This document shows, one piece after another, positions 8,356 through 64,000 of a DNA stretch of 64,000 nt. Position 1 is the first letter of the stretch. Each line of letters begins with the position of its first letter. The stretch is from Candidatus Omnitrophota bacterium (GTDB lineage Bacteria > Omnitrophota > Gorgyraeia > Duberdicusellales > Duberdicusellaceae), in contig JAFGCB010000023.1 in NCBI GenBank assembly GCA_016932855.1, positions 4,825 to 68,824 on the forward strand, given 5' to 3'. The notes under the pieces were generated by a model. That model was not told the origin of the DNA and searched no databases. It worked only from the letters and a program-made list of their open reading frames with translations. The position numbers and the translations under genes were made by a program.

Positions 8356-8360
8356 AATTC

Positions 8361-10981: not shown

Positions 10982-11865
10982 CAGGCTTGTTTAAAAAATT
11001 TAGAAACTCTGTTAAGCATAAAAGATATACAGACCAGGATAAAACCAAAAATAAGCGCCTGACAACAGGCATAGCCGAAGCGTCTGTACTTTATCATGGA
11101 AAATAAAATTCTTATAACCGGCACTTCCGTATGTCCTGCCGGGCCTCCTCTGGTCATGGCTAAGATAAGGGCAAACCCTTGCATTGTGCCTAAGATAGTT
11201 AAGATAACCACCAGCACAAAGACAGGTATCATCATCGGGACTGTAACATTAGTAAATCTTTTTAAGGCATCTGCGCCGTCAACAGTTGCGGCTTCATAGA
11301 GCTGGCGGGGAATAGTCTGTAAGCCCGCCAAAAGAATAATAAAAGCCCATCCGAATCCTTTCCAGCAATGAACTAAAGCTATGGCCGTAAGGGCGGTTGA
11401 GCTGTCGGAAAGCCAATCCCGGGCAAGATACCCTAAGCCTACCATAGAAAGCCAGTGGTTTAAAAGCCCGAAATCTCCGTTATAGATCCATTTCCAGACT
11501 AAACCTACGACTATCTCGGAAAGAATCGGGGGAAGAAAAAATATAACCCGGTACACCGAGCCGGCACGTATTGCCCGGTCACAGGCTAAAGCCAGCAATA
11601 AAGCTAAGAAATTCTGAAAAGTAAGAGCCCATAAGGTTATGTAGCCGGCTTGAGCCATGGAAGACCACCAGGCTTTGTCGTCAAAGATGACCTCCTTAAA
11701 GTGGGCAAAGCCTACGAACTTCATGGTCGGATCTATCCCGTTCCAGGAATGCATGCTTAAATTAAAGACCTTAAAGAAAGGGTAGATATAGAACACCGAG
11801 AAGATAATAAGCGCGGGTAATACGAATAAGAAATTTGTAAACTCTCTTGTGCCTTTTTTCATCAA
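10981..11865 (-). CDS. Sugar ABC transporter permease (MalF/UgpA-like)
   Basis: EAA loop YEAATVDGADALKRFTNVTVPMM. Multi-TM. 4-nt overlap with the substrate-binding protein gene. Confidence 0.85.
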   Translation of the reverse strand: MMKKGTREFTNFLFVLPALIIFSVFYIYPFFKVFNLSMHSWNGIDPTMKFVGFAHFKEVIFDDKAWWSSMAQAGYITLWALTFQNFLALLLALACDRAIRAGSVYRVIFFLPPILSEIVVGLVWKWIYNGDFGLLNHWLSMVGLGYLARDWLSDSSTALTAIALVHCWKGFGWAFIILLAGLQTIPRQLYEAATVDGADALKRFTNVTVPMMIPVFVLVVILTILGTMQGFALILAMTRGGPAGHTEVPVIRILFSMIKYRRFGYACCQALIFGFILVCISFMLNRVSKFFKQA

Positions 11866-13175: not shown

Positions 13176-13179
13176 TATA

Positions 13180-13260
13180 ATATAATATGAAGTTCCTTAA
13201 TATTATATATGGCAAAAGGACTTAGATTATACCATAAAGAAAAGTGAATATTCAATACCA
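13180..13260 (-). promoter_or_regulatory. Candidate promoter/RBS region for the ABC-transporter operon
   Basis: AT-rich, with TATAAT-like hexamers (tataatataat) on the minus strand and an AGAGGG RBS just upstream of the 13175 ATG. Confidence 0.3.
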
Positions 13261-13342
13261 AAATATGGGCCTAAAAAGCCTTCTAAACCGGCTTCCAAGG
13301 CTTGAATTTCAAGGTATTTTAAGAACTTTTCCTTAAATCCTG

Positions 13343-13708
13343 TTACTCGGCCTTATCCCGGAATAACCTGGACATGCCAAAAAGTTCAGGCTTATTCAGG
13401 TCCACGCCTAATCTCCAGTCTCCGGAAAATTGCCGCTCTACCCAGGCAACTCTTCCTTCCACTGTCAAAGGCTTCTTCTGGTCGGGAAAATGAAGCCATA
13501 TACGTAAAGGCGCTGCCTCGGGTATTCCTTCTTTGCTTACTATACCCAGTCCCTGAGCGCTTATATCGCAGGTTGAAGCCTGGGTAATTCTACCGTCCAT
13601 CAGGTCTAAACACCTTACAGGAAGATTGGCCTTAAACCTCTGAAACCGCCTTCTGTCTTCTTTTTCCTCAAACGCCGCTACTGACGCCATATTTATCACC
13701 TCCTTCAA
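13343..13708 (-). CDS. PilZ-domain protein (candidate c-di-GMP effector)
   Basis: RRRFQRF (RxxxR) and DISAQGLG (D/NxSxxG) motifs with PilZ spacing. GGAGG RBS upstream. Confidence 0.7.
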   Translation of the reverse strand: MKEVINMASVAAFEEKEDRRRFQRFKANLPVRCLDLMDGRITQASTCDISAQGLGIVSKEGIPEAAPLRIWLHFPDQKKPLTVEGRVAWVERQFSGDWRLGVDLNKPELFGMSRLFRDKAE

Positions 13709-14086: not shown

Positions 14087-17000
14087 TTACTTCATCCCCG
14101 GCACCCTCAATTCATCTCCCGGCCGGATTAAAGCAAAAAGATATTCCCGGCCATTCCTGGTCCTCGTCTCTATTTCTATCCCGTTAGCCTCGGCAATATC
14201 TCCGAAAGTAACTCCCTCAAAACTCTGAGCAATATCCCACAGAGTATCGCCTTTATTGACTGAATATTCCCTTGTATCGTACTGCGTACCGGGTACTGCG
14301 TACCGCGTTGAATTTAATACTCCACATTCGTCACCCGGCGCCTCCCTTAAAACTGCCTCAGGGGACAACCGACTAGTGATACCCGGTACACGATCAGACG
14401 CCAACGGCGAAATGAATTCTTGTTCAGTCCCCGGCACCCGGTCCGTTGCATTCTTTACAAAACTGCTTGAATCAATTTTGTAAACTTTGGACAGGGGTGA
14501 GCTGGAAATAACATTTGCCCCGTCAGCCGGACTAAATAACTGCTTAAGTTCCCACGGCAGATCGCCAAGGATATCTTTAATTAAAGATTCATTTATCTTC
14601 AAGAATTCTTCAACTCTCGGCTTTTCTTCATTTCGAAATTTCAAATACGCTTTTGATGGAGGCCAGACTAACTGATATATATTCTCCTCTTCTAGAACAG
14701 CTAAGTAATGCGTTACTCCCAACCCACCCCATCGAGGTGAAAAACATAACTGCTCTAACTGCTTTGCTTTAAGTTGCGGATAGTCATCGCGCAATCGAAA
14801 GACATTTTTTACTTCCAGGAATTCATGTAATAATACATATAGCCAATCCGAAGGTGTAAAATAAAAGTGGTCTCTTAGATTAAAACGCATACCCACAATA
14901 TTAATTATAGTACCTTTGGAAGCATCTACGAATTTAACTTTACAAATGGCTGGACCGGCTGGTGTTTCTGATAATAAATCACTCGAACTTGTGCCTTCTT
15001 CTTCTATTCTCTTTTTCTCTTGACGAATACGCTCCCTGTAATCAAAACCGTTCTCCTTTAACCTATCTAAGGTTAAAATAATCAATTTATTTAGTATTTC
15101 TGCTGTTACTTTAATAATTATTTCTTTATCTTCAACAGCAATTGATTTTCTTGTCTGAATTTTTCTATATGCAGTAAAATAGCTGTCCCATTCTTTTTCA
15201 GAAAATTCTAATTTTTCCCAGAGGCCCAATTCTGTTAATTCCTTACGTACCACCGGCGAGCTCATGGTTCGACTACCGCTCAACACTAGCCCTGAGCTTG
15301 TCGAAGGACTTCCCCCTTTCTTTACAAATCTGCTTGAAACAGATTTGTAAACTTTAAGAGGGGAGCTGACCATATTAGAAATACGTATATAAATATCCAA
15401 AATCTTGGTAGGCACATTTTCTGTAAATCCCTTTTCTGAACTAAACAGAAAATAAGCTTGATGCAGACTGTGATCCCATAAATCTAACAACTCCAAAGTC
15501 TCCTCTTTTGCTTCACTAAAAATAACAAACCCGTATTGACTTTCAACAAGTTGTCCCGCTTTATTTTTATCTAAAAAATATTTTATGTCCGCTAAAGGAT
15601 AACCTAGAATAAACCCTTGTAATATATCGCGGTCAAACCCGGGTTGTTTATGCGAATTCAAGGCAGTAACTATAATATCTATTTTACTCTTTACCTCTTC
15701 AGATTGACGCACTCTAGCGGTAAGAAAGTCGAGTTGCCCCTTAGTAATAAGGTCGTTTTCTACCAAGAAAGAACCCTCGTATTTTAATCTCGAAATAATG
15801 TTAGGCCATAAGATAATCTCGTTATTGGTAAAAACTAACCCTAAATTCTCCTGAGCTTCCGGAATGTTGCTTATCTCGCAAGCTAACTGCACTATATCTA
15901 TATCAGGCTCATAAGTATATTTTATATATGCGGACTTCACGCCTAAAAAAACAGACAAAGCATCCGGATACAATAACTGCTGTTTAGCTTTGTCACTAAG
16001 CTTAGTGAAGGCTCTCTTAACAATTAACGACCTTTCCTGCAAGGCACTATGCGCCGGCGAGCTGATTGGTTTCTTCTCAACCGGATAAATAGAAGCGTCC
16101 CCTTTTTCACCATCTGTCATTATTTGTTCCCGTAAAGCCTGCGGGTTTAGTTTCCACCTCCTCAATTGAGCGTATAAGGACTCTTTAGATATACCCAATA
16201 TCCCGGCTGCCTGTGTAAAATTACCCTTTGCTTTAAAAATAGCCGCAAATAATCTCTGCTTTCGAAGCTCCTCTATCTTTATACCGTAATATCTTAATTT
16301 TCGATATACTTCGTTTTTGTGCCATCCCAATTCAGCAGCTACCCGGGGGATATCACACTCCATTCTGATTACAAGCTCTTTTAATTCATCTGCCTGGCTT
16401 TTTTTAGTCGGCCGGGAATTTTGAGCTTCTTCTTTTATTCCGTATTTATCTAACTTTCTATAAAAAGTCTCAATGGGCATTCCTAATATCCTTGCTGCCT
16501 TCCTAAAGTTATAATTTACATTAATAAGAGCTTTTTCAATCATCTGCCTTTCCCGTTCTTCAAGGGTATCCCATACTACAGGAACTTGCAGTTTTTGATT
16601 ATTATTTATAATTAAAATGTCTGGAATTCCGCCGGACCAGCTGTATATCTGGATCTTAAAGCTAAGTATGGTTTTTGTAACCGCGTACCAGCCTTTTGAA
16701 ATCTCTTTTATTCTACCGCTTGCGATAATTTCTAATGTCCTATCCTTACTCCTTTTATCGGCTATAAGAAAAGGTATGTTTAATAAAGCATGAAGGCACA
16801 GTCCGGAATAACATCTTATAGCTCCGGCCTCAACTGCTGCCCTTATAGCGGTACCCATACGCTGTCCGGAAAGCGCGTTCTCCCGAAAATAACCTCTCAT
16901 CTGCGGAATGGACTTATCCAACATATTCAATACCTCGGAACCCGATAGAACATCTTGGGAAGTTTTTAAAGGAAATTCTCTAAGGACCGCCTTTTTTAAC

Positions 17001-20000: not shown

Positions 20001-23000
20001 GAGCTCAACCCATCTTCCGACACCCCAAGCTCGATGCCCGTAACTGCCTCTTCTCCAATAGAATCTGAGCTTTGATTATTTCCTGGAAATTTCCTAAAAC
20101 CCCATAAGACCGCTGGTACATATAGAGCCACACCTAACAAAAATCCTTCTATGCTTGCATGCCATGGTAAATAAAATAAGTTATAGGAAATACCAATCGG
20201 CAATAATATCTTCGCCCAATTTCTTACTTTCGTCTTCTCTGCCGAGTTAGGTTTCTTATATGTCATATAAAGTGAATAGACCATAAAAGGAGGGCCTAAG
20301 GCTCCTACAAGAAGGTTTTGGGTAGTAAAACTTAAGGGAAGAGAGAATATTATGCTCAAACCTATACCATAATACGGCCAAGCTGTGATAATTGTTTTAC
20401 GCATGTTAGGAATCTTGTCTTTTAATATAGTTACAACCCCTCTGTTTTTATTTTCCGGTAAGCTTTTCTCAACTAAACTTTGCATAGAAAAAATAAGAAA
20501 AAGAGAGACTACTGCTGTAGTAATCTGATCAGCACCGCCAAGCAAAACGCAAGGCAAAGAACTTTTTAGCCATATATTATAAGTACAAGGCCAAAACCAA
20601 CCAAAGAAAAAGAAGGTTAATCCAATAGTAGCACCTAATCCCTTAAAATTAAACCTCTTTAGATTTAACAGCTGGCCGGAAATATCTGCTATGGCTCTAA
20701 AAGTAAGAAAACTAACAAAGGTCCTCAAATTAACAAACCCTATAAATCCTGGAATATTCACTGAAGCAAATAATTCACCTAATGGTATTTTAGGCACGTA
20801 CTGTAAAAGATAGAATGAAATACCTATAACTGCAGTTGTTATAGCAACTACGGGGATAGTTTTACGTAATCGCGTTAGCTGGTTAGAATTATAGTCAATT
20901 TTTTTAAGGGGCGAGCTGATGATTCTCTCGGTTTGCGGTTTGCGGTTTGCGGTTTGCGTAAAGGATTCATTTCCGGAAATTGGGCTTGAGGCATTTTTGT
21001 TTTTATCCCAAAACTTAGATTTTATTGGTGAAGAAGTTAATCCTTTTATGGATTTGGCAGGGCTTGATAAAGATATGCTTATTGGCGGAGCATTGCCAGA
21101 TAAACCTCTTTTAACAAACCAATTATTTAAAGGAGAGCTGATTATTCTTGTTTTATTTGATAGCTTTTTTCGGCTAAACACATAAGGAACTTCTACTACA
21201 TCACCCTCACTTAGCGTCTCATGGTTTAAATCATCACCATCTCTACCAATGGACGCATCTAAAGAATAACTTCTTAATATAGGAAACTTCTTTTTAATTG
21301 CATAGCTTTCTCTGGCTAAAGACGCCCAAGCACCTCTACGAAGAGCTTTTTCAAGCGGAACAGTAAAATCGTAATCCATTACTGCCTGATAAAATCCGAC
21401 TAATATAAAGGCTCTTCTATCTTCCGGTCTAAAACATCTATACCTATATGCACTCATCCAAACAAGTCTTTCTATAAGGCTTCTATGAATTCTACATAAA
21501 ACATCAAAAGCTCTGTGTTCGTTTTGCTTAATAAGTAAAATTAATTGGTGCGATTGCTTACTTAATATTCTATCAAAATTAAGAAAAGGATTTTCTAAGA
21601 TGGATGTATCTATTTTTCTACTGCGTAGAGAATTATTCAACTTCTCGATTCTAAGTTGCCTTGTCCTAGGAGAAGGAGATTTTTTCTTCAAAGAAACCCA
21701 ATCAGCATTATCTTCGAGATTAACAAACCATATACCTGAAAATTCACGAGTTCCTCCGCCGCCGCCACCAAAGAGAGTAACTTTTTGCCCTGCTAATTTC
21801 TTGTCGTGTAAATCGTAAACAATTGTATTAGGACTATGATTAAACTTACTTGCCACTTCAGATGTAGTTAAGTAACTAGGATTAGTATAGATTTCATACT
21901 GCCTGTGGATTTCTTTTACGATTTTAAGAAAATCATATATATCTATTCCCTTAAATCTAGACTCAGAAGAACTTAAGCTTAGTAACGTATCTTTTAAGAT
22001 ATTTCTTCGCTTGCCGAATTCTTGATTTAGTATTTCAGAAAGTATGTAACGTTTAGGGTTTTTCACCAATTTATAAAAAACTGCCTTATAAATATCGCAA
22101 ACACCATATTCATTTATAGCTTTCTTAGCTTGCGGCAAAGGGATAATCAAAGCCTGTTCTTTATTCAAACTATTCAAGGCATCTACTGATATGTACCATC
22201 TTCTGCCCGACTTCTTTACTCCCAATCTTTTCCTCATCGAACGTTTTCTGTTTAACATATTAGAAAAAACGCTTCTGTTAACTCCCAGCACCAAGGCAGC
22301 TCTAGAAAGAGTAACAAACCCAGAAGCATTATCATCCTTAACAACTTCTGGCTGTAGAGCGCCTATCCACTCTTGATCAATTGATAAATTTCTTATAACA
22401 GCCTCCAAAACATTAATTCTTTGCCCCTTAACCCTAACCCAAAAATTCTTGTTATACCTCTTATCTGGTATACTTCTTAATGGTGAACTAACTATAGATG
22501 CTTCATCGAATAACTCAGCGGCCGTATATCCTGCTTCAAAGATTATTTTTTTTCTAGTAGAGCTAATACGTTTTGCTAATATTTCTTCTGGCTGGGATAA
22601 AGATCCTTCTCCGTCAAGCTCATGAACTAACCATTTATCCATAAGCGCTTTTGTTTTGCTAGAAACTTCATTTTCAAATCTCTTTAGCACTCCTTCAAAA
22701 TAAAAACCATTTAAGTTATCTAGAATTCTAACACGCAAATCTCTATTCAAATCCTTTAGAAAATCTATAAGAGCAAACTCTAACCAAAGAGGCGCTCTCC
22801 TAGCTCTAGTTCTTAGAGTATTAATAACCATAGATACCCAATCAAAGGCAATCCAATCTTTACTACCAATAACCTTATGTATAAGCGCATTAAGCGCGAC
22901 AGTTTCTTTATCTTCTCTAAAATAAATTTTCTCTAATAACGACATAAGCTCTTCTTTCTTTTGCGATTTATTCCAGCTGGGATTAAACAACATAGACATA

Positions 23001-26000
23001 TATCCACAAACAAGCTTAAATATGACTTCAACCGCGCTTAAATAAGCTTTGGATTCTTTCCCCGGGTTAACAATGTGTTTAATAAACTGTATCTTACTCT
23101 CTAGGATTTCAATTAATACTAAAGTATGCTCTCCAGATTCAGAATTTATATTTAAATTATTAATTATGTAATTTAAATAGTGCTCGCCACCTGAACCACT
23201 ATAATCTAATAAAAGATCTCTTAAAATACCTCTTTGGGTTTTTACTCCATTACCAAAAATAGCAACTGGTGTAGTTAAATCAAAAAATTCTTGCTCTCCT
23301 ATATCATCACTAGCTATGTCCGGCATGCCCTCTTCGTTGGTCCAAAGCATTGCTTTCTCTAACATAGACTTACCAAGATAGTACTTTCTTCTTTTACCTC
23401 TAACATTTAAAGACAACCGTTTCTTTACAAGAGGAATCCCTTTTATCATTAAATCAGGACCAAACCGTGCCCTAAGCTCCTCTAAAGATATTGTTAAACT
23501 TGCACAGTTAAAAACAATTTCTTCAGTTATTGGTTGGTGCACTGTAATGCGCGAAAACTTCTTTGGGCTTCCTTGCTGACCAAATTCACTAGCATTTTCT
23601 GAAAGTTCATTCCTTTGCTTATACTCAAGCAATATAACCTCTGACCCATTAACAGCAAAATTCGCCTCTAATAAGCTCCCTTCTTTAAGGCTAACTGATA
23701 CAGGATAAACTTTACAGAAATTAATAAGATTCCAAGTCTTATTGTGCCTTACGGGAAGATGTCTAACTCTTACCCGCTTAGCCCCAGCCTCTTTTAACAA
23801 CTTAAACATCTTTTTGCTTTTAATGTTAACTGTGCCTGGATTCTCTCTGCTGATAGTCATAAGTAGTTTCCATTCGTTAGAACTATTGGTTGTATATTCA
23901 ACGCGAATAAAATCATCGAAAGTTGTAAAATCAGAATCTACCCCAAGAGAAACTACTCTTATCGGCCAGCCATCTATTAACCAAACAAGCAAACGAGCGT
24001 TACTAAATGGTGTAAAGAAACCTTCATCTCTACCAGCATCTATAAGAAATTTTCCGTTTGAATCAGTTGGCACTCCGGCAACAAACCCAGTCCAAGCTAT
24101 GCGTCGTAAATAAGAAATACTGCTAAAATCTAATTTATAGATGTTTCCTTCGCGATCATACACTTCAAAAGCAATCTCTAACCTTGGATTGCTTCGATCA
24201 AAGGCAGACTTTGACATAGCCCTTAAAAGTGGGGGTTGACCATTGTCTTTTTTCGCTAAGAATAACCGAACTGGCCCAGGAGATTGATGATACACTCCGT
24301 AGTTATGATTAAAAAGCCAAACGGTACTGACTGAAGTCGACTTACTAGCAACCGTAGTTGATTTTCCTTCAAGTACCAATAAATCATGTTCTCCAAAAAA
24401 TTTATTTAAGTAAAACTTTAACAACGCCACTGCTTCTTTTTTCTTTTTTCCTGCATATTGATAATCCCGCTGATGATAAAGAATATTTCCCTTCATGTCT
24501 AGAATTAAATGGTGCCCCCTGGCAACCAAATCTTGTCGCTTAGATACCTCGCCTCTTCTTCCTATTCCGGAATAATTAGAACGTGGACGATTATGATGGG
24601 TATCTTTTAAAACCTTAATGAAATTTCTCTCCCAAGGTTTAACGTCAAACTTATCAGATAGAATATTCTTGGCGCTTGTCGTAACTATCGGACTAGAAGC
24701 TTTCTCGCTTTTATCGCTAAATAATTTCGCTGTAAGTTTTTCATAATCATCCGGCCTAGGATTTACAAAATGCCAATTCATAACAGCTAAGATATCATCT
24801 GCCTGCTCTTCGGTAGCACCAACAAATACTACACCCAACGTATCCCCGATCTCTAAGTCGCGTAATGCTGAAAAGCCTTGCCTTTCAATATTTTTAAATA
24901 CAATCTCTGAAGATTCAGGAAAGACTGTCTTACACGACAGAAGAGTTATTTTTATACCCCATTTTATTTTTATCCTTTCTGATAAGTAACCTAAGCCCTG
25001 GGATATGCAGAAACGTTCATCGGTTAAATCCCTTTCCACTGTAATCTGCCTAAATTCTTGCTGCTCTAAATCTAAAGTTACAAAAGTGTTTGAATCACTT
25101 TTGTAACTTTGTGCCAGGGGCGAGCTGATTGGCTTGCCATCAACGAAATAAATAGAAGGGTCCCTTTTTTCCAATCTATTAAGCACTTCGCCTGCCCTTT
25201 TGACTACAGATTGGGGCAAATCTCCACTTAATCTCCATATCTTATTAAAAGACGCTAATCTCTCTATTTTTGCTGTACAAAAGCAATTACCTATATCTTC
25301 CAACACAGCAAGCGAAAATAGGATAACTTCAGAGCTCGTATCATCCAAAGCTTTACGGTAGAATACATTTCTTACTCTACTCAGGTAAATTTGCCTATCT
25401 GCATCCGGCAATTTATTATAAACATTCCATATAACCTGATATAACTTTAACCTTCTTTGACTTGTAAGTATAGCTTTGCCGTAATGGAATTTTTCATGCG
25501 AAACTTCTATGCCTTCAGCTACCGTTAACAATAACTCTAGGGCTTGCCGGCAAGGATGCTCTAAAGAATCATTAAGGTAAAGATCTACTACCTCCCATTT
25601 AGACTTTTCTAAAGAAGGCAGAAATACTTTCCCCATAACTTCAGTAAAATCACCTAATTCTGTCTGTATGCTGGTTAGCTTAAAGACCAAAGACTCTGAA
25701 ACCTTTTGGCCCAAAAAACTATCAACTATTATTCCTAACCAGGCAACAAAATCTTTTCTTAAAGAGCTGTCTATTGGAAGCTGCTCTATTTTATTGGACA
25801 AAGAAATGGCTAACTTGCAGAAATATAGCTTTTCAACAAGGTTAACATCTTTCTTTCCGGAATTAGATTTTATGCCGGAAAAAACCTTATTTAGTTCCGG
25901 CTCATCTTGAGCAATAATCACAGCTTCTTTCATACACATAAAAGACAAACGAATAAAAAAGTTCTTAAAATCTACTGCTTTTAGTAGGTGCTCTATTAAA

Positions 26001-50000: not shown

Positions 50001-53000
50001 TTTTTATTCTGAAAATATCCTATGGCTTCGGCTACGCGTATAAAAAAATAATTCTCGGCAAAAAACGACGGTAAATCCCCCCAGCTTAAACCCCCAAAAA
50101 AACCGATAAATCCGTTCCATAACCGCCTATCAGGAATATCATGCATGAGAGGCTCGGGGTCCATCCCGCTCATTAGCTCTTTAAACAAGCGGCCCAAATT
50201 CCTGACCACGTCTCTAGGATATATATTGTCTATAACAATGGTTTCGATCATCGCAGGTAAATACTCAGTTACTATCTTTTTAGCAAAAGAGCCCGGCTCT
50301 GAACACATTATTAACGGTGGCTCTCCCATAGTATCATATGGCCAAACAGTTGCTTGACGGAAGTCCACAATCTCTTCCATTGACAGCAAAACCTTTTCAA
50401 AAGAAATAAGATTCTTAACATGTTTATAGCCTTTTTCTCTTATCTGCGTCTGGGTTATGTGATTGGATAAAGATATGAAAAGTGAATTCGCCTTTTCAGG
50501 ATCATGGCCTTGATAAGGAGAGATGAAGGCTGCCTGATAGAAAATAGCCCACCAGAGATTAGGAGAACCTCGTACGCTATTATGGCGGCGATAATATTCC
50601 ATGAATGTACGCAAGAAAGCATCATCTCTCGAATGTATGCCAAAAACTGTCTCAATTTGGGACTTAACAAATAAATTCCTGTAATCCTGCATGAATTTCG
50701 CAAGAAGCTTAGCAGCTACAACCTTATCTACCAAAAAGCTAAAAACTTCTTTTACAACCTCAAGATTTTCCGCACTTATAACCCCACCCTCTAAAATAAG
50801 GCTAACCTCATTAAGAGGCCCTAAAAGAATTGCAAACTCAGGCTCGTGAAAATAAAGGTAATCTCTGTGCTCGGGGTTTAAAAAATCCTCTTTAAGTATT
50901 TTCCTGGCAAGGAACCACTTATTGTTTTTTAGATTATGCAAAATTTTTGCCGCTTTTGTGATAAACTCTTCATTTCTATTATCAACGCTCTCCCGCAAGA
51001 CCGTAAGCCTTCCCCTCTGAAGACTTTCAACTATTGCCCTGCTTTGAACCATCCGCCTATCCAAAAATTTCCCGCTAAGCCTTAAAAGGCCTTTTGTCTG
51101 ATCTAACCGCCCAAGGCTTATCAATTCCCGGGCGTATTTAATAGTAGTCCTGGCCAGGCGTTTGTGCCTTATCCTTACCCTCTTTAGCTGCTTAACCAAG
51201 GAATCCAAGTCTTTTTCAATCGGCCCCGTTATGAACTGAATATCCCTAATATGGGTAAAAACTTCTTGGCAATCGCTAAGCCAGTTTATTTCCTTAAGTT
51301 CGCTGTCAATCTGATGGTCTACTGTTCTAAAAGCCTGCCATATACTTTGATAGGAAGCATATATATAGGTAAGCACCCAGGTGCCCCAAGGCTTAATCCA
51401 TTTGTAGCGCATCTGGCGCACTCGATACTGCCCGCTCCTTACGGCCACGCCCAAAAATCTAAATCTTTCCGAATCCCGGCTAACTTCAACTCTGTCATTT
51501 TCAGCATCAAGAGAAAATATTGCTGAAACCAATAGAGAATTGGTTACTGTTGCCGGAATAGCGTTAAGGCTTTTGTTCTCTTTAGCGGCAGTAATAAGGG
51601 CCGGTAGATTTTCCGGCTTAAGGGCTCTTTCCATTTGAACAACGACTTTATCGGGAATGGCTTTTTTATAACACTCGTCGTCTTCAATCCTATCTAGCTC
51701 ATCTTGAATTTTCCCGGCTAGGTTCTGAAGCATATTTCCTATTCTCCGCTGGGATTTTCCTCTTCTTTGCAGATAAGTCCGCTTAAAATCCAGGTAATAA
51801 ATCTTTAAGTTCCATTCCATAAGCAGTTCCTCAAGACGGCCAAGGCAGGCCAGACGTTTTAATGTTGAAACCGGGCTGGAAGATAACCCAGGCGTATCCA
51901 AGGAAGCCGGGCTTGAGAAGATAAAATTATTACCGAAACCGGATAAAGCCCTTCCGCTCATAAGCCCCACAAGGCTTAACTCTCTTATAAGCAACCCATA
52001 ACCGTAATCCAGGCTTCTATCCCATGTATCAAATAATTGACGTGTCCTCTCTTTTCCTTGGCTAAAAATCCTAAATCCATAACGGCTGACAATCCCGGTA
52101 TAAGTCTCAGGAAATGTCAGGACGTATTCTATATCTTCAAAAGGGTATCCCACGATAAACCCGCAAGCTTTAACCAAGTCAGGATTATTTACATCATCTT
52201 CATTTTCATCACACCACTGAAGAATATTGGTAATATTGTCTATCCCTTCGGGTTTATCGCCATTAGAGATTAAATCAAAGATTGAACTCCTAAGCCCTGA
52301 ATCGCTAATTCCGCTTTCCAACAAAAGATTACCTTCCTGCTTAAATTTCTCCGTAAGGCCTGGCAGAAAAACCGTAAATGAAGGAAGATAAAACAATAAC
52401 TCCAAATCTTTCTGCTCGTTTTGCAAAAGACCATGTTCATCGGTTAAAGGCGTTATATCAGGATCGTTATTTTTTTCATCCACGCACTGTATGTATCCCG
52501 GCTTTATGCCTAAGAAGACCGGAAGAACATCAGGATAAAGAATTAGCTGTTTTCTTTCTCTGTCAAGGCGGTTAAAGACTTGTTTTATGCTGTTCTGCCT
52601 CGACTGCGATATGCCCAGACTAATCCTCAACTCCTCCAGGTTTATTGGGCTGGAAGTCTTCGACTTGGGACTGCTTCCAGCCACAGGAAGGTTATTACGG
52701 GAAAAACCTCTGCCAAAACGATATGGCATAGCTTGCTTAAGAGGAGAAGAAGCTGTCTTCTGGATATCCTCTGAGGATAGAGATGATCCGGAATCAGGGG
52801 CAGGATTTTTTCTTCTGCCGGAAATTAGCTTTTGTATTAAATAAATAATACCCAAGGGCAAAGGCAAGAAAGAAAGGTCTGCTTTTGATGCCCGGCTAGA
52901 CTGTATGCTTTCACTTATAGCTTCTATGGTTTGTTTAAGAAATATACCGATCTGGCCGAGGCCTATAGCCTGAATTATATGGGCAGTAAGCATTGCGAAG

Positions 53001-56000
53001 AATATACTGTAATTTACCGCCAGAAAAAGGCGCCCTATATTTGTTTTTTTCTTTAAATAGATATAGGAAATCGCGGCACAAGTAAACCCTGTAATCACTA
53101 TCGGATTAAGGTCAGTCCAGTCGTAATGGTGAGGAATAGCAAAAAATCCGGTAAGGTATATAACCGTAGCCCAGAAACCTGCTGCCCAGTAATTAAACCA
53201 CTTCTTAAGCCGTTTAGTGAAAAACCTGGCTGTAAATACGAACAAAGGAATTGCTTTAAGAATAATAATTTCCCAGGTTTTAGCCTTAATACCGGCAACA
53301 GCCTCTTTTAGCCAGAGCAAACGGTCCTGCCTTATCTGGGGAGAATTTTCCTTTATGACCTCGATAGCCTGGTTTGAATTGTCAATATTTTGAATAATAA
53401 CATAAATCAGAAATCCTGCAACAGAAGCGAAGAAGACAAAACTAAAGAGGCGGCCTAAATTCCATTTAGTCTTCATCTTGAAGACCTGTTTTGCATTAGC
53501 CCGGGTTTTCTCATTAAGTAACTTCTTAGTCCCGGCCCTATACTCTAATTTCAACCTGACTTTATTAAAAAGTAGGCCTAAAAATCCTAATCCCAGCAAA
53601 GCCAAGGAAGACAAAACCAATGCCAGGCTGAAATTAAAAGATGGATAAATATTCGATAGGCCTATTGATCCGGCATATTTAGATAAATATAAGGCTATGC
53701 CTGCCAAGCCGATGGTGACAATAGAAATAATCTTGAGTTTACTTATCCCTTTATTAACCTCTTGGTTAGCTCTTTCTCCTTTCTTCTGGTGCCATTTAGC
53801 GTCATCTACCCCGGATCTTGTTTTGCGCAGAAACTCTTCGCTGCCGATCGCGAATCTTGCGTTTGCTTTTCCCCGGCGGAACAACCGCCAACACCAATAT
53901 AATAATAAAACTTCTGCCGGCCAAAGAGCATGTATGAACGCTGCCTTGGTTGCTATAGCCACTGCCAGCAAAACACTGCTGGCAAGAAGGACTATTACGC
54001 TTACTATTTTGATAGTTCCGTAGGCGCCTTCTGCCCAGGCTCTTTCTTTTCGCGAGGCATGCCTGAATCTGGCATTAATGTCATCATCTAAAGGCCATAA
54101 ATCTTTTGTCCTTACTCCGCCCACTGGACCTACCCTGGGAAAGACAAGAAGAAATCTTCTGCCCATGGTACCTTTACGCAGACCGAACTCTCTGCTCACA
54201 TTTTTCGTATGCTCTGACGTACGGCTGTTAAAGGCGAATTTACGCAGCAATAAGGCAAAACATACCCCCATAGTTAAGAGTGTATAGACAATATTACTCT
54301 GGATAAAAGCAACTATCGCAACAGGCAAACCAACATAGAGAACAGTCTGGCCCAAGACCCAGGCAATACCCCAGCTTCTATTGTCCCTAATCTCAATGGG
54401 GAACCGGCCGCCGCTAGTGTAATCACTGCGTTTTTTTGCCATATTTTCGGCATCCACGCTAATCCTTTTATTAAGCTTTCCCACAACCAAAGCAAGTAAG
54501 CTTAAGCCTCCTACTACTGTAGCCAATATCTTTGCTGCCTGAACAGCCCAAGATACCTTAATAGCATCAACCGCCGGCTGAACCTGGCTAATGCCTTCAG
54601 CAATACCTTCAGCCCCTCTAACCAGGGCCTCGGTTGATGTTTGCACCTCAGTGACCATCTTAGGGGATTCCAAACCGAAAATAAAATATAAAGCTGTTAA
54701 TATTCCCAGGCCCAAAATCACTATGCTTAATACCTTAAAGGCACTGGTAAAACCATCTCGTCTGCCGGCTTCTTCTCTGCCTTGAGATAAAGCATTAAGC
54801 GCGCCTACATCTCCTAGCCTCGCAGTCCTGCGCCAGGCTTCCTTAAGCCCAAGCTTCCTGAACAATTTTGCAATGGGGTCTAAAATCCCGAAAGTAACGC
54901 GCTTCTTAACAAAGCCCGCCTGGACCGAAACCGTACGCTTGAATATCCAGTTAATATATATGGAAAGAAGAAGAAATACTGTACCCAGGGCAATAAATCC
55001 GACCGGACTGGTTATAAAAGCTAAGAGTTTCTGCGGAGACTGAACGTGTAAGATTGCTAATCCCGATATAATCCCCAAAGTAAACAAGAAAGGTAAACCC
55101 GCAGGGTGCTTAAAGAACTTATACAGGTTAACAAATATCTTCTTAACGCAAAAATCAGAAAAACTTCCCAGGCCCTGCCTTAAGCTAGGAAGGCTTATCT
55201 GTACTTTGGGTATATTAATTGATGGCCGCGATGTTTTTGGTTTCCGGATTTTTGGAGCAGTATAGACCTGTTCTGTTTTAACTTTTACCACGGGAGTTTT
55301 CTTAATCTTTCTTGCAGAGACAGTTTTTTCTCTTGCCGGCTTATAAACTTTAGACTTCCGAGCTATATCAACTTTGTAATCTGAAGGTAAACTTATTATC
55401 AGCCTAAGACAGGTTTTAATCGATTCGATCTGGGCTGCGTAAGGCTGGCTGACCCCAAGGGTAATTTCTATCTCCAGCCCGGATTCTTCGAAAATCTTAC
55501 TTGTTCCTCTGAGCACGCCTTGGGCTTCCTTAAATACATCGCTTTCGTATATTGCCCAGGCAAGCTCTCCAAGCCTATTGGACAAATTGCGCCTTATTTC
55601 TATGGCATCTTTGCCCGAGGAAACTTTAAATAAAGAACTCTTCAAGGACATGAAACTGTCCCGGAAATCATCATAATCAGAATTATAAGAAAAACTTCCT
55701 TTATAAGACCTTTTACTAAGCTCAAGTAAAGGCATAAGATACCAGATAGCTTCCAACATGCTCTCTATGCGCCATAAGTCGGAAAATTCCGGACCCTGCC
55801 CCAGCTCAATGTTCCTAAAGTCAGCGGCTACTTTTTCGCTGCTAAAACTTATCTTAAAAAGAATGAATTCCGCAAGCTCCCGGTAAGAGCTGAAGACACG
55901 CAGATGAAAACAATCCTTTTCTCCAAACCGGCTGTATGCGCTTTCCTTAACTGTTAAGGATTTTAAAAGCCGCTCGCTCATCTGTCTGTTTAGCGAATCT

Positions 56001-59000: not shown

Positions 59001-62000
59001 GCAGGAAACCCTTCACCGTTGAACATGAGCAGAGAAAAGACATATCTTTTAAGAAGCTTAACCACCTCCAAAATATCGGTATCCTCTGATGACTTTGTCC
59101 TTCCAGCTTTATACCAGGTAGAATCAAAAGGCATATAAATATCTTCCCAGACCGCGCCTAAGTAAATCATTGATGAACGCTCCTCGGTAACCCTTATATA
59201 GGTCTTTATGTGCTCTACCACATCCAGATCATCAGAGCCCCAGCGGGGCTTCATTTTAGATATGCCGTTAATATATCTTAGCCCGGCCTGTATCTGCTTC
59301 TGGGTTAAGGCCCTTCTTCCGAACTCTCCATATAAATACAGGTAAAGAGCCTCGGCTCTTAGGCGCCGCTCCCTGGGAGTCATATCTTTCCATACATTGT
59401 AATCAGAAGGGTTCTCATGCTGGCTGGGCCGATTAAGCTTTTCGTATAGAGCAGCGATTTCTTCTTCTACCTCTTTTATACTCTTTTTTCTTATTAAGGT
59501 AAGTTGACGATCCGAAAACCGAGCTATCCTCTTTAAGATATCCAACATATATCTGTCTGTAACCGCGGTAAATCCTTTGGCAAGATAACAGAATACACCT
59601 CTTGCGCCTGCCTGATGAAGGGCCAGTATCTTAGCCTGCTCTGCCAGCCAATCATCATCAAGATGAGGGTTTATTGCTCCAAAAACATCCCCTTCTTTAA
59701 TCCCTGTCTTTTCAACCCATTCTCCGGGAGTCGTAAGACCTTTTAGATGGTGGCGAAAAGCAACTTTCCTTGCCCGGCCCCAAGTCCCGTATGCCTGAAC
59801 TAAGTAAAGCATGTTACCGAAAGCTATTAAAACCATAGACAAAACAGAAATAGCGCCCCTAACAAACATGGGCTGGCCAAGATTTTCTTTCTTAAGCCAG
59901 TTCTTGCCTTTAAGACCTTTAAATAAATTGTAATAATAGTCTATTAGCCTCAAAGAAGAAATCTCTTTACCTAAATCATCGGAAAGCATGCTAAAAAGCC
60001 GTGTTACTGCCTGGTCATTCCATTGTTTGATAACTGAAAACTCCCAGGGATGAGTAAATAGCCTGAGTTTCTCTGCGGCTGTCTTATCAAGAAAGAAGAA
60101 GCCTTGGCTAAGTTGAAATCCTGACATCGGAAATACTTCATTTAAGCTTGCCTCGATTCCCATTTTCATCGACATATCTTTGGCGTTGCCGGTAGCAATA
60201 ACCATGGTAGTAGCATTTTCCCCTGGCTGGCGATCCCTAAAAAGAACCTCATGCCAACTGGAAGTAATGAAACCGTATCGAGGCTTGCCGTGTTTTGTAA
60301 AGAAATTATCGATTCCTCCAATTTCTTTAGCGTGACCGGCGGCAATATGATAGGTGGCAAGCTTACGGGGATCACTGTTCCTAACTTTTTTATAATCTAT
60401 GGCATCAATAAAAGCATTTTGGGTAAACGGCGTTCGGGTCTCGCAAAAACCCTCATGGCCTTTTCCTGAATAATCAGGCCCGGTTCCGTTTAAAGATACG
60501 CAGAATCCTCCGAACTTCTCGGTAATAATATAGGACATTCGCCAAGCACTCTGTTGCATAGTTACAAAATACTGATATTGAACAGGACTCTCTTTTCTCC
60601 TAAGTCTTCCTTTCAAATATTTGTCAAGCAACAAACCTTTCTTTTCAATATCAGCAAGTAAGGCTTCATAGTCGCGGTCATTCATGGGATTTTCCTGTAT
60701 CTGATGATGCTGGCTCAAAAGCTCATCTTTACTGTCAAGCCTTTTAAGATATCTTCGATATTGTCTTTGGGACATGCGCTTTGCGTTCTTATCGAGTATA
60801 TCTGAGTAATATAGATACTTGTTCTGATCAGATATACCCAAATCATTGAAGAAATTATTTAATATATTGGCAAAAGCATGGTAATCAGTCCTTTTCTGGG
60901 GAAAAATAGCATCAAGAGCAAAAACCGCAATCTTCTCTACCGAAGGCATCATTTCTTTGCGGACATCAACCCCGTGCGCCCGCAATATCATTTTCACCCG
61001 GGGGTCATCCCAGCCTTCGAATATTTCTCTTTTAGATAGGCTGCCGCGTAACCTTTCGGGTGTTCCAACTACAAAATCAACTATTCGGGCATAAGCCATC
61101 CAAGGAGTCTCTCCGGTGCAAGTCTGGGTAGGTATTAAATTAAAATTTTTGCTGTACTCCCAGTGCTGCCAGGCTTTTATAATCTCACAGGCAACCGAAA
61201 TAGCCGTATCCTTTACATTACTGTCGATTATAGGCCGCATATTCAAGGCATTTGAATAAGTACGGCTATAGCGCTCTACCGCTTTATCCCAGCTGCTTTC
61301 TTTAATTTTTATTCCCAGCATGGAGATGAAATCCGCCAAGGCCGGGCCCACGGGAAGAGGCGAACTGCTTGATATTTTAATTCCAGCCAGACTTCCTAAT
61401 GTGCTTGTGTTTCTATCTTCTATAACCCTACCCTCCTGAGTAACCATAAATATTTTAACTTCACTACTTAAGTCAAAGATATTTTCACTGATTCTTACCG
61501 GCTTTAGGTTATCGTCTAACAATGTAACTTTGTGTTTAACCTTAAGCATTCCCCTCGCCAAATCTTTAAGAGTTGAACGGGCCTCTTCCTGAGAAGACGA
61601 AAGAGCTAAAACTAATGCTATCCTGCCCCGCTCAAGTTCGGCAATCCCCAGGTTGTAGCTGTAGTAAAGGCTGTCTTTGTCTATGCCGTTATTCTCGGCC
61701 AATTCCGCTAAGCTAAGATGATCGAGACTGTAAACAAAAGGCTTAGCATTTACTCCGGCAATAAAAGAAAGATTGTTTCTAAATAGCTTATCTTTAAGAT
61801 GATGACCTATAAAGTCACTGTGGGCGATAATCTGCGGTCGCGGCGGAATATACTCTATGTTTTCTTTCCTAAACAAAAAGTTTAGCTTCAACGGACTTGC
61901 CGAGCCGATATCGAAAGAATCTTCATCCTTGAAAGAATAGACCAGAACCCGGGAAAAATCATACGCACCTACAAGATTATCGGCCCGGTCTATCTGTTCC

Positions 62001-64000: not shown

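What the first reader, a model, noticed from the sequence alone, without database searches (positions are those of the whole stretch)
14087..64000. One uninterrupted ORF of at least 49.9 kb that continues past the window edge
Seen directly: the minus strand has no stop codon in frame from 64000 down to the TGA at 14087-14089. The ORF track starts it at a GTG (63967) only because the upstream 11 codons contain no start codon. The real N-terminus is therefore almost certainly outside the window and the gene is larger than 16,626 codons. In AT-rich DNA a random frame is closed about every 20 codons. Genes of this size are extremely rare in prokaryotes. Comparable giant genes have been reported mainly from Candidatus Omnitrophota, and this locus matches that description. 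That is an inference, not a match I can verify.
Basis: partly seen in the sequence, partly recalled or inferred. Interest (0 to 1): 0.9.

Follow-up and report, generated by a model that had tools for sequence, protein, structure and literature searches.

The report
Giant Omnitrophota gene with punctuated units
This is a real open reading frame of at least 16,637 codons from a Candidatus Omnitrophota genome, a known kind of giant gene, but it reads like a string of complete ordinary proteins separated by a short "Ser-Ser-Pro" tag, which suggests a bacterial polyprotein and gives testable cut sites.

Summary
The minus strand is open from 64000 to a stop at 14087-14089 (16,637 codons; chance about 1e-505). 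Codon usage matches the neighbouring genes. The stop is TAA, not TGA.

Flanking proteins are identical to NCBI entries from a "Candidatus Omnitrophota" MAG (contig 73,476 nt). Giant ORFs are common in that phylum, so the gene is a new member of a known kind (multi-enzyme, membrane-anchored type).

New here: the tripeptide SSP occurs 62 times (4.5 expected; SPS, PSS and TSP are at expectation). It is encoded by 39 codon combinations and followed by L/A/I/V/M in 57 of 62 sites. It sits at the ends of complete protein units (RpiA, ARMT1-like phosphatase, LspA-like, an unknown 240-aa family).

Homologues of that 240-aa unit occur in other large proteins, two of them NCBI-labelled Omnitrophota. Each of those proteins has its own hyper-enriched motif (GKSLG, ASSLG, DNGG, RSELR/RSEVR, RAETR), and that motif brackets the same unit (combined P about 5e-27).

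Best reading: a polyprotein-like precursor whose lineage-specific delimiters are read by a cognate protease. Cleavage is inferred, not shown, and no protease was identified.

Whether the ORF continues past the window edge is unresolved.

The parts
14087..64000 (-). Giant ORF, at least 16,637 codons, open to the window edge. Stop TAA at 14087-14089. First in-frame starts are GTG 63967 and ATG 63955.
14495..63433 (-). 62 SSP delimiter sites, forming about 45 linker clusters with a median unit of 250 aa. First site 63433-63425, last 14503-14495.
   Evidence: SSP 62 observed vs 4.5 expected (maximum 12 in 500 shuffles). 39 codon combinations. L/A/I/V/M follows in 57 of 62 sites. SPS/PSS/TSP/ASP at expectation. 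0 in the 10 neighbouring genes.
62846..63073 (-). P-loop NTPase/kinase-like segment (aa about 311-385), beginning about 30 aa after SSP at aa 288.
   Evidence: Weak Pfam/NCBIfam hits only. Walker A 'GKQLSGKTT' seen in the sequence.
59915..60205 (-). Glucosamine-6-phosphate deaminase-like segment (aa 1266-1362).
   Evidence: NCBIfam NF002557, E = 7e-19, partial.
52961..55099 (-). Transmembrane block 1 (aa about 2968-3680, about 11 hydrophobic helices).
   Evidence: Kyte-Doolittle scan.
51917..52645 (-). Unit 'a' of an unnamed 240-aa family (aa 3786-4028), bounded by SSP at aa 3783 and 4029.
49130..50215 (-). Complete ARMT1-like (DUF89) damage-control phosphatase unit (aa 4596-4957). SSP at aa 4964 lies 5-6 residues after the position where free-standing homologues end.
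   Evidence: Pfam 3e-53. PDB 7t7n 4e-44. 120 listed best hits, nearly all free-standing proteins of 383-439 aa, 36-42% identity, about 90% coverage. Alignment A2.
44639..45382 (-). Complete ribose-5-phosphate isomerase A unit (aa 6207-6454), bounded by SSP at aa 6185 and 6477. The DGADE and KGGG motifs are present.
   Evidence: Pfam 2e-27. NCBIfam PRK00702 profile 5-221 of 223. PDB RpiA chains 15-236 of 239. Sequence.
42569..42814 (-). Radical-SAM-like segment (aa 7063-7144), with a 'CxxxCxxC'-type motif 'CVLPCRHC'.
   Evidence: Weak Pfam hit, E = 9e-4, below cut-off.
27773..29263 (-). Transmembrane block 2 (aa about 11580-12076), including an LspA-like (signal peptidase II, Peptidase_A8) segment at aa 11581-11711. 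SSP sites at aa 11557 and 11566 lie at its projected N-terminus.
   Evidence: Pfam 1e-4 (below cut-off), NCBIfam 5e-5. TM scan. Boundary test.
20096..20860 (-). Transmembrane block 3 (aa about 14381-14635).
16442..16567 (-). Fis-type HTH_8 domain (aa 15812-15853), with a second HTH about 100 aa further on.
   Evidence: Pfam 1.3e-17, two stretches. PDB NtrC-family HTH.
15368..16054 (-). Unit 'b' of the unnamed 240-aa family (aa 15983-16211), bounded by SSP at aa 15980 and 16212.
14177..14266 (-). C-terminal LysM domain (aa 16579-16608).
   Evidence: Pfam 1.5e-8.
25072..25173 (-). One of 7-8 copies of the junction module 'kGDAsIYFVDGKPI-SSP-L...'. Other DNA copies: 16048-16110, 26842-26904, 30631-30732, 31261-31323, 34261-34362, 48979-49041. 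The 25072-25164 / 30631-30723 pair is 97% identical over 93 nt, and the Logan contig ends here.
352..13708 (-). Co-directional downstream genes: PilZ (13343-13708), sugar ABC importer (SBP 11862-13175; permeases 10981-11865 and 10148-10981), MFS_2 sugar transporter (8361-9980), TPR-glycoside hydrolase (6034-8355), unknown (4747-5892), GH72-like (3440-4666), TPR protein (1819-3474), ROK regulator (352-1542).
   Evidence: Pfam. Exact NCBI Omnitrophota matches.

Best explanation
The ORF is a giant gene of a Candidatus Omnitrophota bacterium, of the membrane-anchored 'multi-enzyme' type. It is built as beads on a string: about 45-60 largely unrelated, complete protein units with a median length of about 250 aa. 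They include enzymes, HTH proteins, polytopic membrane modules and a LysM tail. The units are joined in one frame and separated by a short protein-level delimiter, S-S-P followed by an aliphatic residue.

The delimiter is most likely a recognition site for a sequence-specific reader. My best guess is an endoprotease that cuts the precursor, during or after translation, into individual proteins. That would make this a bacterial polyprotein.

Related large proteins, two of them NCBI-labelled Omnitrophota, use the same architecture with different delimiters (GKSLG, ASSLG, DNGG, R-x-E-x-R). This is what would be expected if site and reader co-evolve, as in viral polyproteins.

Shown: the ORF, its taxonomy label, the motif statistics, and the coincidence of motifs with unit boundaries here and in relatives.
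Inferred: Not identified: the protease.
For: 1. Real gene: open frame with P about 1e-505, and codon usage r = 0.90 with neighbouring genes. Independent assembly of the 3' part agrees. NCBI Omnitrophota labels on flanking genes.

2. SSP statistics: 62 observed vs 4.5 expected, a maximum of 12 in 500 shuffles, 39 codon combinations, L/A/I/V/M next in 57 of 62, and 0 in 4,180 aa of neighbouring genes. Ordered-tripeptide controls are at expectation (SPS 4, PSS 2, TSP 2, ASP 2, GSP 5). Flanks are not Pro-rich, and the non-module flanks are essentially unrelated to each other.

3. Units are complete proteins. The listed ARMT1 homologues are nearly all free-standing proteins of 383-439 aa at about 90% coverage, and their C-termini fall 5-6 aa before SSP 4964. 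RpiA covers profile positions 5-221 of 223 between SSP 6185 and SSP 6477. SSP sites lie at the LspA-like N-terminus.

4. Boundary test: 8 of 10 projected unit termini lie within 25 aa of an SSP (null mean 1.6, P = 0.001). Excluding the paralogous units it is 4 of 6 (P = 0.008). SSP falls inside domain envelopes once vs 5.7 expected.

5. Comparative test: a profile of the SSP-bounded 240-aa unit finds only 28 relatives among 1.84e9 representatives. Most are in 1.6-6.4 kaa proteins, and a few are free-standing 275-317 aa proteins.

6. Each large relative has its own hyper-enriched 4-5-mer. Examples: RAETR 20 times in a complete 7,793-aa protein vs 0.009 expected; GKSLG/AKSLG 19 times across two abutting ORFs of one genome.

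7. That motif brackets the homologous unit on both sides in 12 tested relatives plus both window copies (Fisher combined P = 5e-27).

8. GKSLG sites also use mixed Ser and Leu codons, so that motif is protein-level too.

9. Pfam domains in relatives lie between delimiters.

10. The mixture of cytosolic enzymes, DNA-binding HTH domains, polytopic membrane modules and a peptidoglycan-binding LysM in one chain is hard to reconcile with one functional topology. This last point is inference.
Against: - No cleavage has been observed. I had no proteomic data to test it.
- No protease with matching specificity was found. Within the window the only peptidase-like segment is a weak LspA-like hit, below Pfam's cut-off, and LspA's known site (lipobox Cys) does not resemble SSP.
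- Not every unit boundary carries SSP. The ARMT1 N-terminus is 409 aa from the nearest site. One SSP lies inside RpiA at a family-conserved position.
- 8-10 of the 62 sites belong to a recently duplicated 63-93 nt module, so they are not independent.
- About 85% of the ORF has no recognisable family, so the boundary test rests on few units.
- Structure predictions were too poor to show that SSP lies in linkers (pLDDT 33-34).
- A conserved uncleaved linker, a modification site or a docking motif would give the same sequence statistics.
Confidence: 0.5

Rival explanations
1. One uncleaved mega-protein. The chain stays intact as a membrane-anchored scaffold or 'coat', as proposed for V. archaeovorus. 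The SSP motif is a conserved inter-domain hinge. It could be a site of O-glycosylation or phosphorylation, or a docking motif for a partner, rather than a cut site.
For: - The literature treats these proteins as single membrane-associated products implicated in prey attachment and cell-wall digestion.
- Three TM blocks and a C-terminal LysM fit a surface-associated protein.
- Sugar-uptake and glycoside-hydrolase genes lie next door.
- No protease was identified.
- SSP contains two hydroxyl residues, and its flanks are enriched in Ser, Thr and Lys.
Against: - Passive linkers in known megaproteins are not strictly conserved. Here an exact pentapeptide can recur 20 times with unrelated flanks.
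- Some lineage motifs (RPEVR, RAEVR, RAELR) have no Ser, Thr or Asn to modify.
- The units equal whole free-standing proteins, including cytosolic enzymes and DNA-binding HTH domains.
- The same genome-specific motif is shared by two separate abutting ORFs.
Confidence: 0.3
2. Operon in disguise. The long frame is transcribed as one mRNA, but units are translated separately from internal start sites at the junctions. Alternatively, ribosomes skip a peptide bond at the motif, as with 2A peptides.
For: Ribosome processivity over more than 16,000 codons is a real problem (general knowledge). The units are complete proteins.
Against: - In-frame start codons with an SD-like site are not enriched after SSP (7 of 62 sites vs 6.8 expected), and neither is Met (27 vs 27.3).
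- The codon after SSP shows no start-codon preference.
- The motif is conserved at the amino-acid level, not the nucleotide level.
- The lineage motifs end in P, G or R, so they share no 2A-like chemistry.
- No Rfam RNA element was found.
Confidence: 0.05
3. Recombination scars. The delimiters are remnants of the mechanism that builds these genes, for example in-frame insertion or shuffling of cassettes through homologous junction modules. They would have no role in the protein.
For: A 63-93 nt junction module recurs 7-8 times with up to 97% DNA identity in an otherwise non-repetitive gene. The second Ser of SSP shows a TCG codon excess (20 vs 6 expected; 13 vs 5.1 outside the module).
Against: - 52 of the 62 sites lie outside the module and use many synonymous codon combinations.
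- GKSLG in another genome mixes AGY and TCG Ser codons and TTR and CTN Leu codons.
- This points to selection on the peptide.
- This reading could explain the origin of the motif, but not its maintenance.
Confidence: 0.1
4. Artefact. The frame is an assembly chimera, or a decaying pseudogene fusion of many genes.
For: The source is a short-read MAG. The Logan assembly of the same run breaks inside a 93-nt repeat.
Against: - The chance of an open frame of this length is about 1e-505.
- Codon usage is gene-like.
- The two assemblies agree at 99.99% over 12.5 kb.
- Catalytic and metal-binding motifs of RpiA and ARMT1 are intact.
- The repeat copies are in the same frame, so a mis-join would change length, not continuity.
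- The same architecture is seen in many independent assemblies, including long-read complete genomes.
Confidence: 0.03

Closest known systems
Omnitrophota giant genes. These are 'class 1, multi-enzyme metabolic clusters' in Nielsen & Lui 2026 (bioRxiv 10.64898/2026.06.07.730766), 'Archaeovorin'-type in West-Roberts et al. 2023 (bioRxiv 10.1101/2023.11.21.568195), and 'giant ORFs' in Seymour et al. 2023 (PMC10066038).
   Same: - Same phylum label.
- More than 10 kaa.
- Many unrelated domains with none dominating.
- Mostly unannotated sequence.
- Multiple TM helices.
- Signal-peptidase-II-like, methyltransferase-like, radical-SAM-like and HATPase-like content.
- Carbohydrate-import genes next door.
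   Different: - No SecA_DEAD, C39 or S8 peptidase, glycosyltransferase or NUDIX domain is detectable in the visible 16.6 kaa (the N-terminus may be missing).
- Those papers do not report recurrent delimiter motifs. West-Roberts et al. state that missing information on cleavage points prevented a per-polypeptide analysis.
Viral polyproteins (picorna-, flavi- and potyviruses). This comparison is from my own knowledge.
   Same: Complete functional proteins are concatenated in one frame. They are separated by short cleavage motifs that are conserved within a lineage, differ between lineages, and have variable flanks.
   Different: This is a cellular bacterium, the chain is 5-50 times longer, no cognate protease is identified, and no cleavage has been demonstrated.
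Multi-cassette RiPP precursors such as the cyanobactin PatE, processed by subtilisin-like PatA and PatG. This comparison is from my own knowledge.
   Same: In bacteria, repeated conserved recognition sequences flank each variable cassette and are read by dedicated proteases. S8 and C39 peptidase domains are reported in Omnitrophota giant proteins.
   Different: The cassettes there are peptides of 6-8 residues, not whole proteins of 100-1,200 aa.
Bacterial surface polyproteins processed at motifs, such as Porphyromonas gingivalis RgpA/Kgp/HagA and Mycoplasma hyopneumoniae P97/P159 adhesins. This comparison is from my own knowledge.
   Same: Large bacterial precursors are cut at short sequence motifs into several functional surface products.
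   Different: Those have few products and homologous adhesin or protease domains. They are not dozens of unrelated enzymes, regulators and membrane proteins.
Uncleaved megaproteins: PKS/NRPS megasynthases, and giant adhesins or RTX-like proteins.
   Same: Very long single chains of many domains.
   Different: Those are built from a few repeated domain types with variable linkers. This ORF is almost non-repetitive, and its junctions carry a strictly conserved motif.

Membership tests
Omnitrophota giant ORFs (Seymour 2023: ORF over 20 kb in an Omnitrophota genome) | ORF longer than 20 kb | tested here: met
   49.9 kb open frame.
Omnitrophota giant ORFs (Seymour 2023) | Encoded in an Omnitrophota genome | tested here: met
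   Ten flanking proteins are identical to NCBI MBN2119878-89, labelled 'Candidatus Omnitrophica/Omnitrophota bacterium'. This rests on the depositor's label. No marker-gene phylogeny was possible from this window.
Class 1 'multi-enzyme metabolic cluster' giant proteins (Nielsen & Lui 2026) | At least 10 kaa, with many distinct Pfam families tiling the chain and none dominating by copy number | tested here: met
   16.6 kaa. Four families score above Pfam's cut-off (ARMT1-like, Rib_5-P_isom_A, HTH_8, LysM). Sub-threshold hits include Peptidase_A8, Radical_SAM, HATPase_c, HTH_17, P-loop and HAD. No family has more than 2 copies. Self-BLAST is nearly empty.
Class 1 'multi-enzyme metabolic cluster' giant proteins (Nielsen & Lui 2026) | Inner-membrane-anchored architecture (TM helices or signal peptide; 94% of their catalogue) | tested here: met
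   About 25 hydrophobic 19-mers in three blocks. This is a hydropathy scan only, not DeepTMHMM.
'Archaeovorin' type (West-Roberts 2023) | Glycosyltransferases, glycoside hydrolases, methyltransferases, peptidases and NUDIX hydrolases on the giant protein | tested here: not met
   No GT, GH or NUDIX hit even at E = 0.5. There is only a weak LspA-like peptidase and methyltransferase-like motifs seen by eye. The test applies to the visible part only.
'Archaeovorin' type (West-Roberts 2023) | Divergent SecA DEAD / preprotein-binding domains; C39 or S8 peptidase near the N-terminus | tested here: inconclusive
   None were found in the 16.6 kaa, but the N-terminus may lie outside the window.
'Dockerin-type' giant proteins (West-Roberts 2023) | [quoted passage not shown] | tested here: not met
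   No such Pfam hits.
Polyprotein (functional sense) | Concatenated complete proteins in one frame | tested here: met
   ARMT1 and RpiA cover essentially the whole length of free-standing homologues. The 240-aa unit also exists free-standing.
Polyprotein (functional sense) | Conserved short motifs at the junctions | tested here: met
   SSP statistics and boundary tests here. Lineage-specific motifs bracket the homologous unit in relatives.
Polyprotein (functional sense) | Proteolytic cleavage at the junctions by a cognate protease | not testable with these tools
   No proteomic data were accessible, and no protease was identified.

The most novel reading that the evidence does not exclude
Omnitrophota giant genes may be true cellular polyproteins. 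Dozens of otherwise ordinary proteins (enzymes, regulators, membrane proteins) would be made as one chain and released by a lineage-specific site-specific protease. The cleavage code (SSP-aliphatic, [GA]KSLG, ASSLG, DNGG, R-x-E-x-R and others) would co-evolve with that protease. The short motifs found here would then be the missing cleavage map for the whole class. Giant 'genes' would become a form of genome organisation, an operon fused at the protein level, rather than single giant machines.
Probability: 0.4. Interest if true: 0.85.

Novelty: new member of a known kind. Interest (0 to 1): 0.62.

Why it matters
The gene itself adds one more example to a phenomenon already documented in hundreds of Omnitrophota genomes.

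What matters is the punctuation. Published work leaves open whether these giant proteins function whole or are cut, and states that the lack of known cleavage points blocks unit-wise analysis.

A short delimiter that is conserved at the protein level, specific to each genome, and located at the ends of complete protein units here and in relatives turns that question into concrete tests:
- Search existing proteomes for termini at the motif.
- Cut the sequences in silico at the motif for structure prediction.
- Correlate motif type with the phylogeny of peptidase domains.

If cleavage is confirmed, it would be an unusually large-scale use of the polyprotein strategy by a cellular organism. It would also change how protein counts, operon structure and 'the largest protein' are interpreted in this phylum.

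Tried and rejected
**Extending the ORF upstream**
- Scans of genome contigs and metagenome contigs with aa 1-400 found nothing.
- Only Logan contigs, not the NCBI contig, are retrievable.

**Finding more relatives with DNA**
- Alignments A3 and A4 were too divergent for pattern design.
- A5 gave one GTDB locus and no JGI metagenome locus.

**Structure**
- AlphaFold2 on the two-sequence unit alignment and on aa 6151-6800 gave pLDDT 34 and 33. Neither was interpreted, and fold searches were not run.

**Candidate protease**
- The conserved N-terminal domain of full-length relatives has invariant Q-x-A-H, E-G and G-G-F-H. It reminded me of TraB/TIKI-type metalloproteases.
- It has no Pfam or PDB sequence match, so that idea stays an untested recollection. 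The domain is also not in this window.
- Relaxed Pfam scans of the ORF found no other peptidase.

**Explanations tested and rejected**
- SSP as a by-product of Ser/Pro-rich low complexity.
- SSP as part of one repeated module; only 8-10 of 62 sites are.
- A DNA-level signal.
- Internal translation starts.
- RNA elements or tRNAs.
- Alternative genetic code: neighbouring genes end in TAA, TAG and TGA, and their table-11 translations equal the NCBI proteins.

**Literature**
- No paper in the held library combines 'polyprotein' with Omnitrophota.
- Neither giant-gene preprint mentions SSP or linker motifs.
Full report
**1. The observation**

The minus strand of the window is open in one frame from position 64000 to a stop at 14087-14089. 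That is 49,911 nt, or 16,637 sense codons. The next-longest open stretch in any frame is 2,442 nt.

In the other five frames of the same 49.9 kb, stops make up 3.3-9.7% of codons. From base composition, the probability of no stop in 16,637 codons is about 1e-505.

Codon frequencies correlate at r = 0.90 with those of the ten downstream genes. The ORF's own off-frames give 0.57-0.59.

A 'tga' lies just upstream but out of frame. GC content is 41%.

An independent assembly of run SRR13394437 (Logan contig, 16,666 nt) matches window 8440-20981 with one mismatch in 12,542 nt.

**2. Where it comes from**

The flanking proteins are sequence-identical to NCBI proteins MBN2119878-MBN2119889. These are labelled 'MAG: Candidatus Omnitrophica/Omnitrophota bacterium' (locus tags JW734_02325 onward) and lie on a 73,476-nt contig.

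That contig extends at least about 2 kb beyond window position 1. At most about 7.5 kb of it can therefore lie upstream of position 64000.

**3. Does the gene continue past the edge?**

This is unresolved.
- Only 11 codons precede the first GTG (63967), and 15 precede the first ATG (63955). Runs of that length stay open by chance with P = 0.46 and 0.35.
- An AAGGAG lies 11 nt before ATG 63955. Neighbouring genes have SD sites 6-9 nt upstream of their starts.
- The first 100 residues have no signal-anchor, unlike the N-termini of full-length relatives. This favours a missing N-terminus.

I put continuation at roughly two in three.

**4. What kind of protein it is**

The protein has an ordinary globular composition and is almost free of internal repeats.

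Domain hits:

| Segment | Residues | Evidence |
|---|---|---|
| ARMT1-like/DUF89 phosphatase, complete | aa 4596-4957 | Pfam 3e-53; PDB 7t7n 4e-44 |
| Ribose-5-phosphate isomerase A, complete | aa 6207-6454 | NCBIfam profile 5-221 of 223 |
| Fis-type HTH | aa 15812-15853 | Pfam 1e-17 |
| LysM, C-terminal | aa 16579-16608 | Pfam 1.5e-8 |
| Weaker segments | various | glucosamine-6-P-deaminase-like, LspA-like, radical-SAM-like, HATPase-like, HTH_17, P-loop, HAD-like |

About 85% of the protein is unannotated.

Hydrophobic helices cluster in three blocks: aa about 2968-3680, 11580-12076 and 14381-14635.

Downstream, in the same direction, lie a PilZ gene, a sugar ABC importer, an MFS sugar transporter, TPR-glycoside hydrolases and a ROK regulator.

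All of this matches the published description of Omnitrophota giant genes:
- They are common in the phylum (77 of 116 Velamenicoccia genomes; PMC10066038).
- They are membrane-associated.
- They lie near carbohydrate-import systems (bioRxiv 10.1101/2023.11.21.568195).
- One of three reported architectural classes is the 'multi-enzyme metabolic cluster' (bioRxiv 10.64898/2026.06.07.730766).

The gene is therefore a new member of a known kind. The 'Archaeovorin' hallmark domains (GT, GH, NUDIX, SecA_DEAD, C39, S8) were not detected in the visible part. I do not file it under that sub-type.

**5. The SSP punctuation**

The tripeptide Ser-Ser-Pro occurs 62 times, against 4.5 expected. The maximum in 500 shuffles was 12.

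It is a protein-level signal:
- It is encoded by 39 different codon combinations.
- L, A, I, V or M follows in 57 of 62 sites, often followed by Lys.
- It is absent from the 4,180 aa of the ten neighbouring genes.

It is not a low-complexity effect:
- The permuted or similar tripeptides SPS (4), PSS (2), TSP (2), ASP (2) and GSP (5) are at expectation.
- The flanks are not Pro-rich.
- The flanks of the 52 sites outside a repeated module are essentially unrelated to each other.

Eight to ten sites sit in a short repeated junction module, 'kGDAsIYFVDGKPI-SSP-L...', which is also conserved at the DNA level.

When sites closer than 60 aa are merged, the ORF falls into about 45 segments with a median length of 250 aa.

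**6. SSP marks the ends of complete protein units**

- The 120 best-listed homologues of the ARMT1 segment are nearly all free-standing proteins of 383-439 aa that cover about 90% of it. Their C-termini align 5-6 residues before SSP 4964.
- RpiA lies between SSP 6185 and SSP 6477.
- Two SSP sites lie at the projected N-terminus of the LspA-like segment.
- The only substantial internal paralogues (aa 3786-4028 and 15983-16211, 31% identical) are each bounded on both sides by SSP, and the SSP sites align.

Boundary statistics:
- 8 of 10 projected unit termini lie within 25 aa of an SSP. The circular-shift null mean is 1.6 (P = 0.001).
- Without the paralogues it is 4 of 6 (P = 0.008).
- Only one SSP lies inside a recognised domain envelope, against 5.7 expected (P = 0.02). 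That one is a family-conserved position in RpiA.

Exceptions exist. The ARMT1 N-terminus has no nearby SSP.

**7. The comparative test**

A profile of the paralogous unit, searched exhaustively against 1.84 billion representative proteins, found only 28 relatives. Most are embedded in proteins of 1.6-6.4 kaa. A few are free-standing proteins of 275-317 aa that begin with hydrophobic, signal-peptide-like N-termini.

None of the large relatives is enriched in SSP. Each has its own hyper-enriched short motif:

| Protein(s) | Motif |
|---|---|
| P0121/P0122 | [GA]KSLG |
| P0127 | ASSLG |
| P0129 | ASLG |
| P0125 | DNGG |
| P0131/P0132 | RSEVR |
| P0139 | R[SA]ELR |
| P0140 | R[PA]EVR |
| P0142/P0144/P0146/P0147 | RSELR |
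| P0141 and its complete 7,793-aa version P0171 | RAETR (20 exact copies vs 0.009 expected; units of 122-767 aa; unrelated flanks) |

In 12 tested relatives, and in both window copies, the homologous unit is bracketed on both sides by the host protein's own motif. Unit lengths are about 236-370 aa. The Fisher combined P is 5e-27.

By eye, P0123 ('GPGTP') and P0126 ('PEYPQSP') behave the same way.

Two of these relatives are labelled Candidatus Omnitrophota by NCBI.

In the one relative with DNA in hand (L002, a GTDB representative), two abutting large ORFs (stop and start overlap as TAATG) both use [GA]KSLG, at 11 and 8 sites. Ser and Leu codons are mixed. The motif is therefore genome-specific and under selection at the peptide level.

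Pfam domains in three relatives all lie between delimiters.

**8. Interpretation**

A short peptide that is strictly conserved, specific to each lineage, and located at the boundaries of otherwise unrelated complete proteins calls for a sequence-specific reader.

The simplest reader is an endoprotease. The architecture is then that of a polyprotein, as in RNA viruses or multi-cassette RiPP precursors.

This reading also eases the topological oddity of having all of the following in one chain:
- cytosolic sugar-phosphate enzymes;
- DNA-binding HTH domains;
- polytopic membrane modules;
- a peptidoglycan-binding LysM.

West-Roberts et al. had suggested possible autoproteolysis from the presence of C39 and S8 domains. 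They noted that cleavage points were unknown. Neither preprint mentions recurrent motifs. The held literature contains nothing combining polyproteins with this phylum.

Cleavage itself remains an inference. I found no protease of matching specificity and had no proteomic data.

The main rival is an uncleaved mega-protein in which the motif is a modified or docking hinge.

Three other readings are poorly supported:
- Internal initiation: no SD-plus-start or Met enrichment after SSP.
- RNA elements: none found.
- Artefact: see sections 1 and 9.

A recombination-scar origin for the junction module is possible. It does not explain why the peptide is maintained across synonymous codons.

**9. Assembly caveat**

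The only DNA repeats within the ORF are the 63-93 nt junction modules. The best pair (25072-25164 and 30631-30723) is 97% identical over 93 nt. The Logan contig ends at about 25105, inside it.

A mis-join there would add or remove about 5.5 kb in frame. It would not break the ORF.

**10. Verdict**

The finding is real and correctly guessed as an Omnitrophota giant gene. As such it is not novel.

The added value is the delimiter code. It appears to be undescribed, holds across the related large proteins examined here, and makes the open question 'one protein or many?' directly testable.

Noticed in passing
An out-of-frame 'tga' lies a few bases upstream.
   Followed up: yes
window 63953-63973: AAGGAG lies 11 nt upstream of in-frame ATG 63955, and GTG 63967 directly abuts it. 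Neighbouring genes have SD sites at 6-9 nt. A start inside the window cannot be excluded.
   Followed up: partly
window 25072-25164 and 30631-30723 (also 16048-16110, 26842-26904, 31261-31323, 34261-34362, 48979-49041): The junction module 'kGDAsIYFVDGKPISSPL...' is conserved at the DNA level (up to 97% over 93 nt) in an otherwise non-repetitive gene. The Logan short-read contig ends inside one copy. It may be a hotspot for recombination or gene conversion.
   Followed up: partly
window ORF, the 62 SSP sites: The second Ser of SSP is encoded by the rare codon TCG 20 times (6 expected; 13 vs 5.1 outside the repeated module). The following Leu is CTG in 8 of 27 cases, against 9% overall. This could reflect a local codon or translation-speed effect at junctions.
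   Followed up: partly
window 352-13708: Downstream co-directional cluster: PilZ, sugar ABC importer, MFS_2 transporter, two TPR/glycoside-hydrolase-like proteins and a ROK regulator. A LacI regulator lies just beyond window position 1 (L003). Several gene pairs overlap or abut (3440-3474, 10981, 11862-11865), which suggests translational coupling.
   Followed up: partly
P0171, P0132, P0142, P0143, P0144, P0146, P0147, P0127, P0140 (N-terminal about 480 aa): Full-length relatives share a conserved N-terminal domain after a signal-anchor. It has invariant Q-x-A-H, E-G and G-G-F-H and no Pfam or PDB sequence match. Its function is unknown.
   Followed up: partly
C-termini of P0121, P0122, P0123, P0127, P0129, P0131, P0141, P0142, P0146, P0171: Many relatives end in ...AA (others in SA, QA or FA) after a conserved C-terminal domain. 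This is reminiscent of an ssrA-like C-terminal signal. The window ORF instead ends in LysM followed by ...RVPGMK.
   Followed up: no
L002 9490-9560 (CAZLUT010000001.1): Two large delimiter-punctuated ORFs (2,742 and 3,076 aa) abut with overlapping stop and start (TAATG). The second begins with its own hydrophobic anchor. The same system can evidently be split into consecutive ORFs.
   Followed up: partly
P0128, P0130, P0133, P0134, P0135, P0137: Several free-standing homologues of the unnamed 240-aa unit (P0130, P0134, P0135, P0137) begin with hydrophobic N-termini that look like signal peptides or lipoboxes, judged by eye. The unit may work outside the cytoplasm.
   Followed up: no
window 1-64000: GC skew is negative in every 2-kb bin of the + strand, and every sizeable gene is on the minus strand. 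No tRNA or Rfam family is present in 64 kb.
   Followed up: yes
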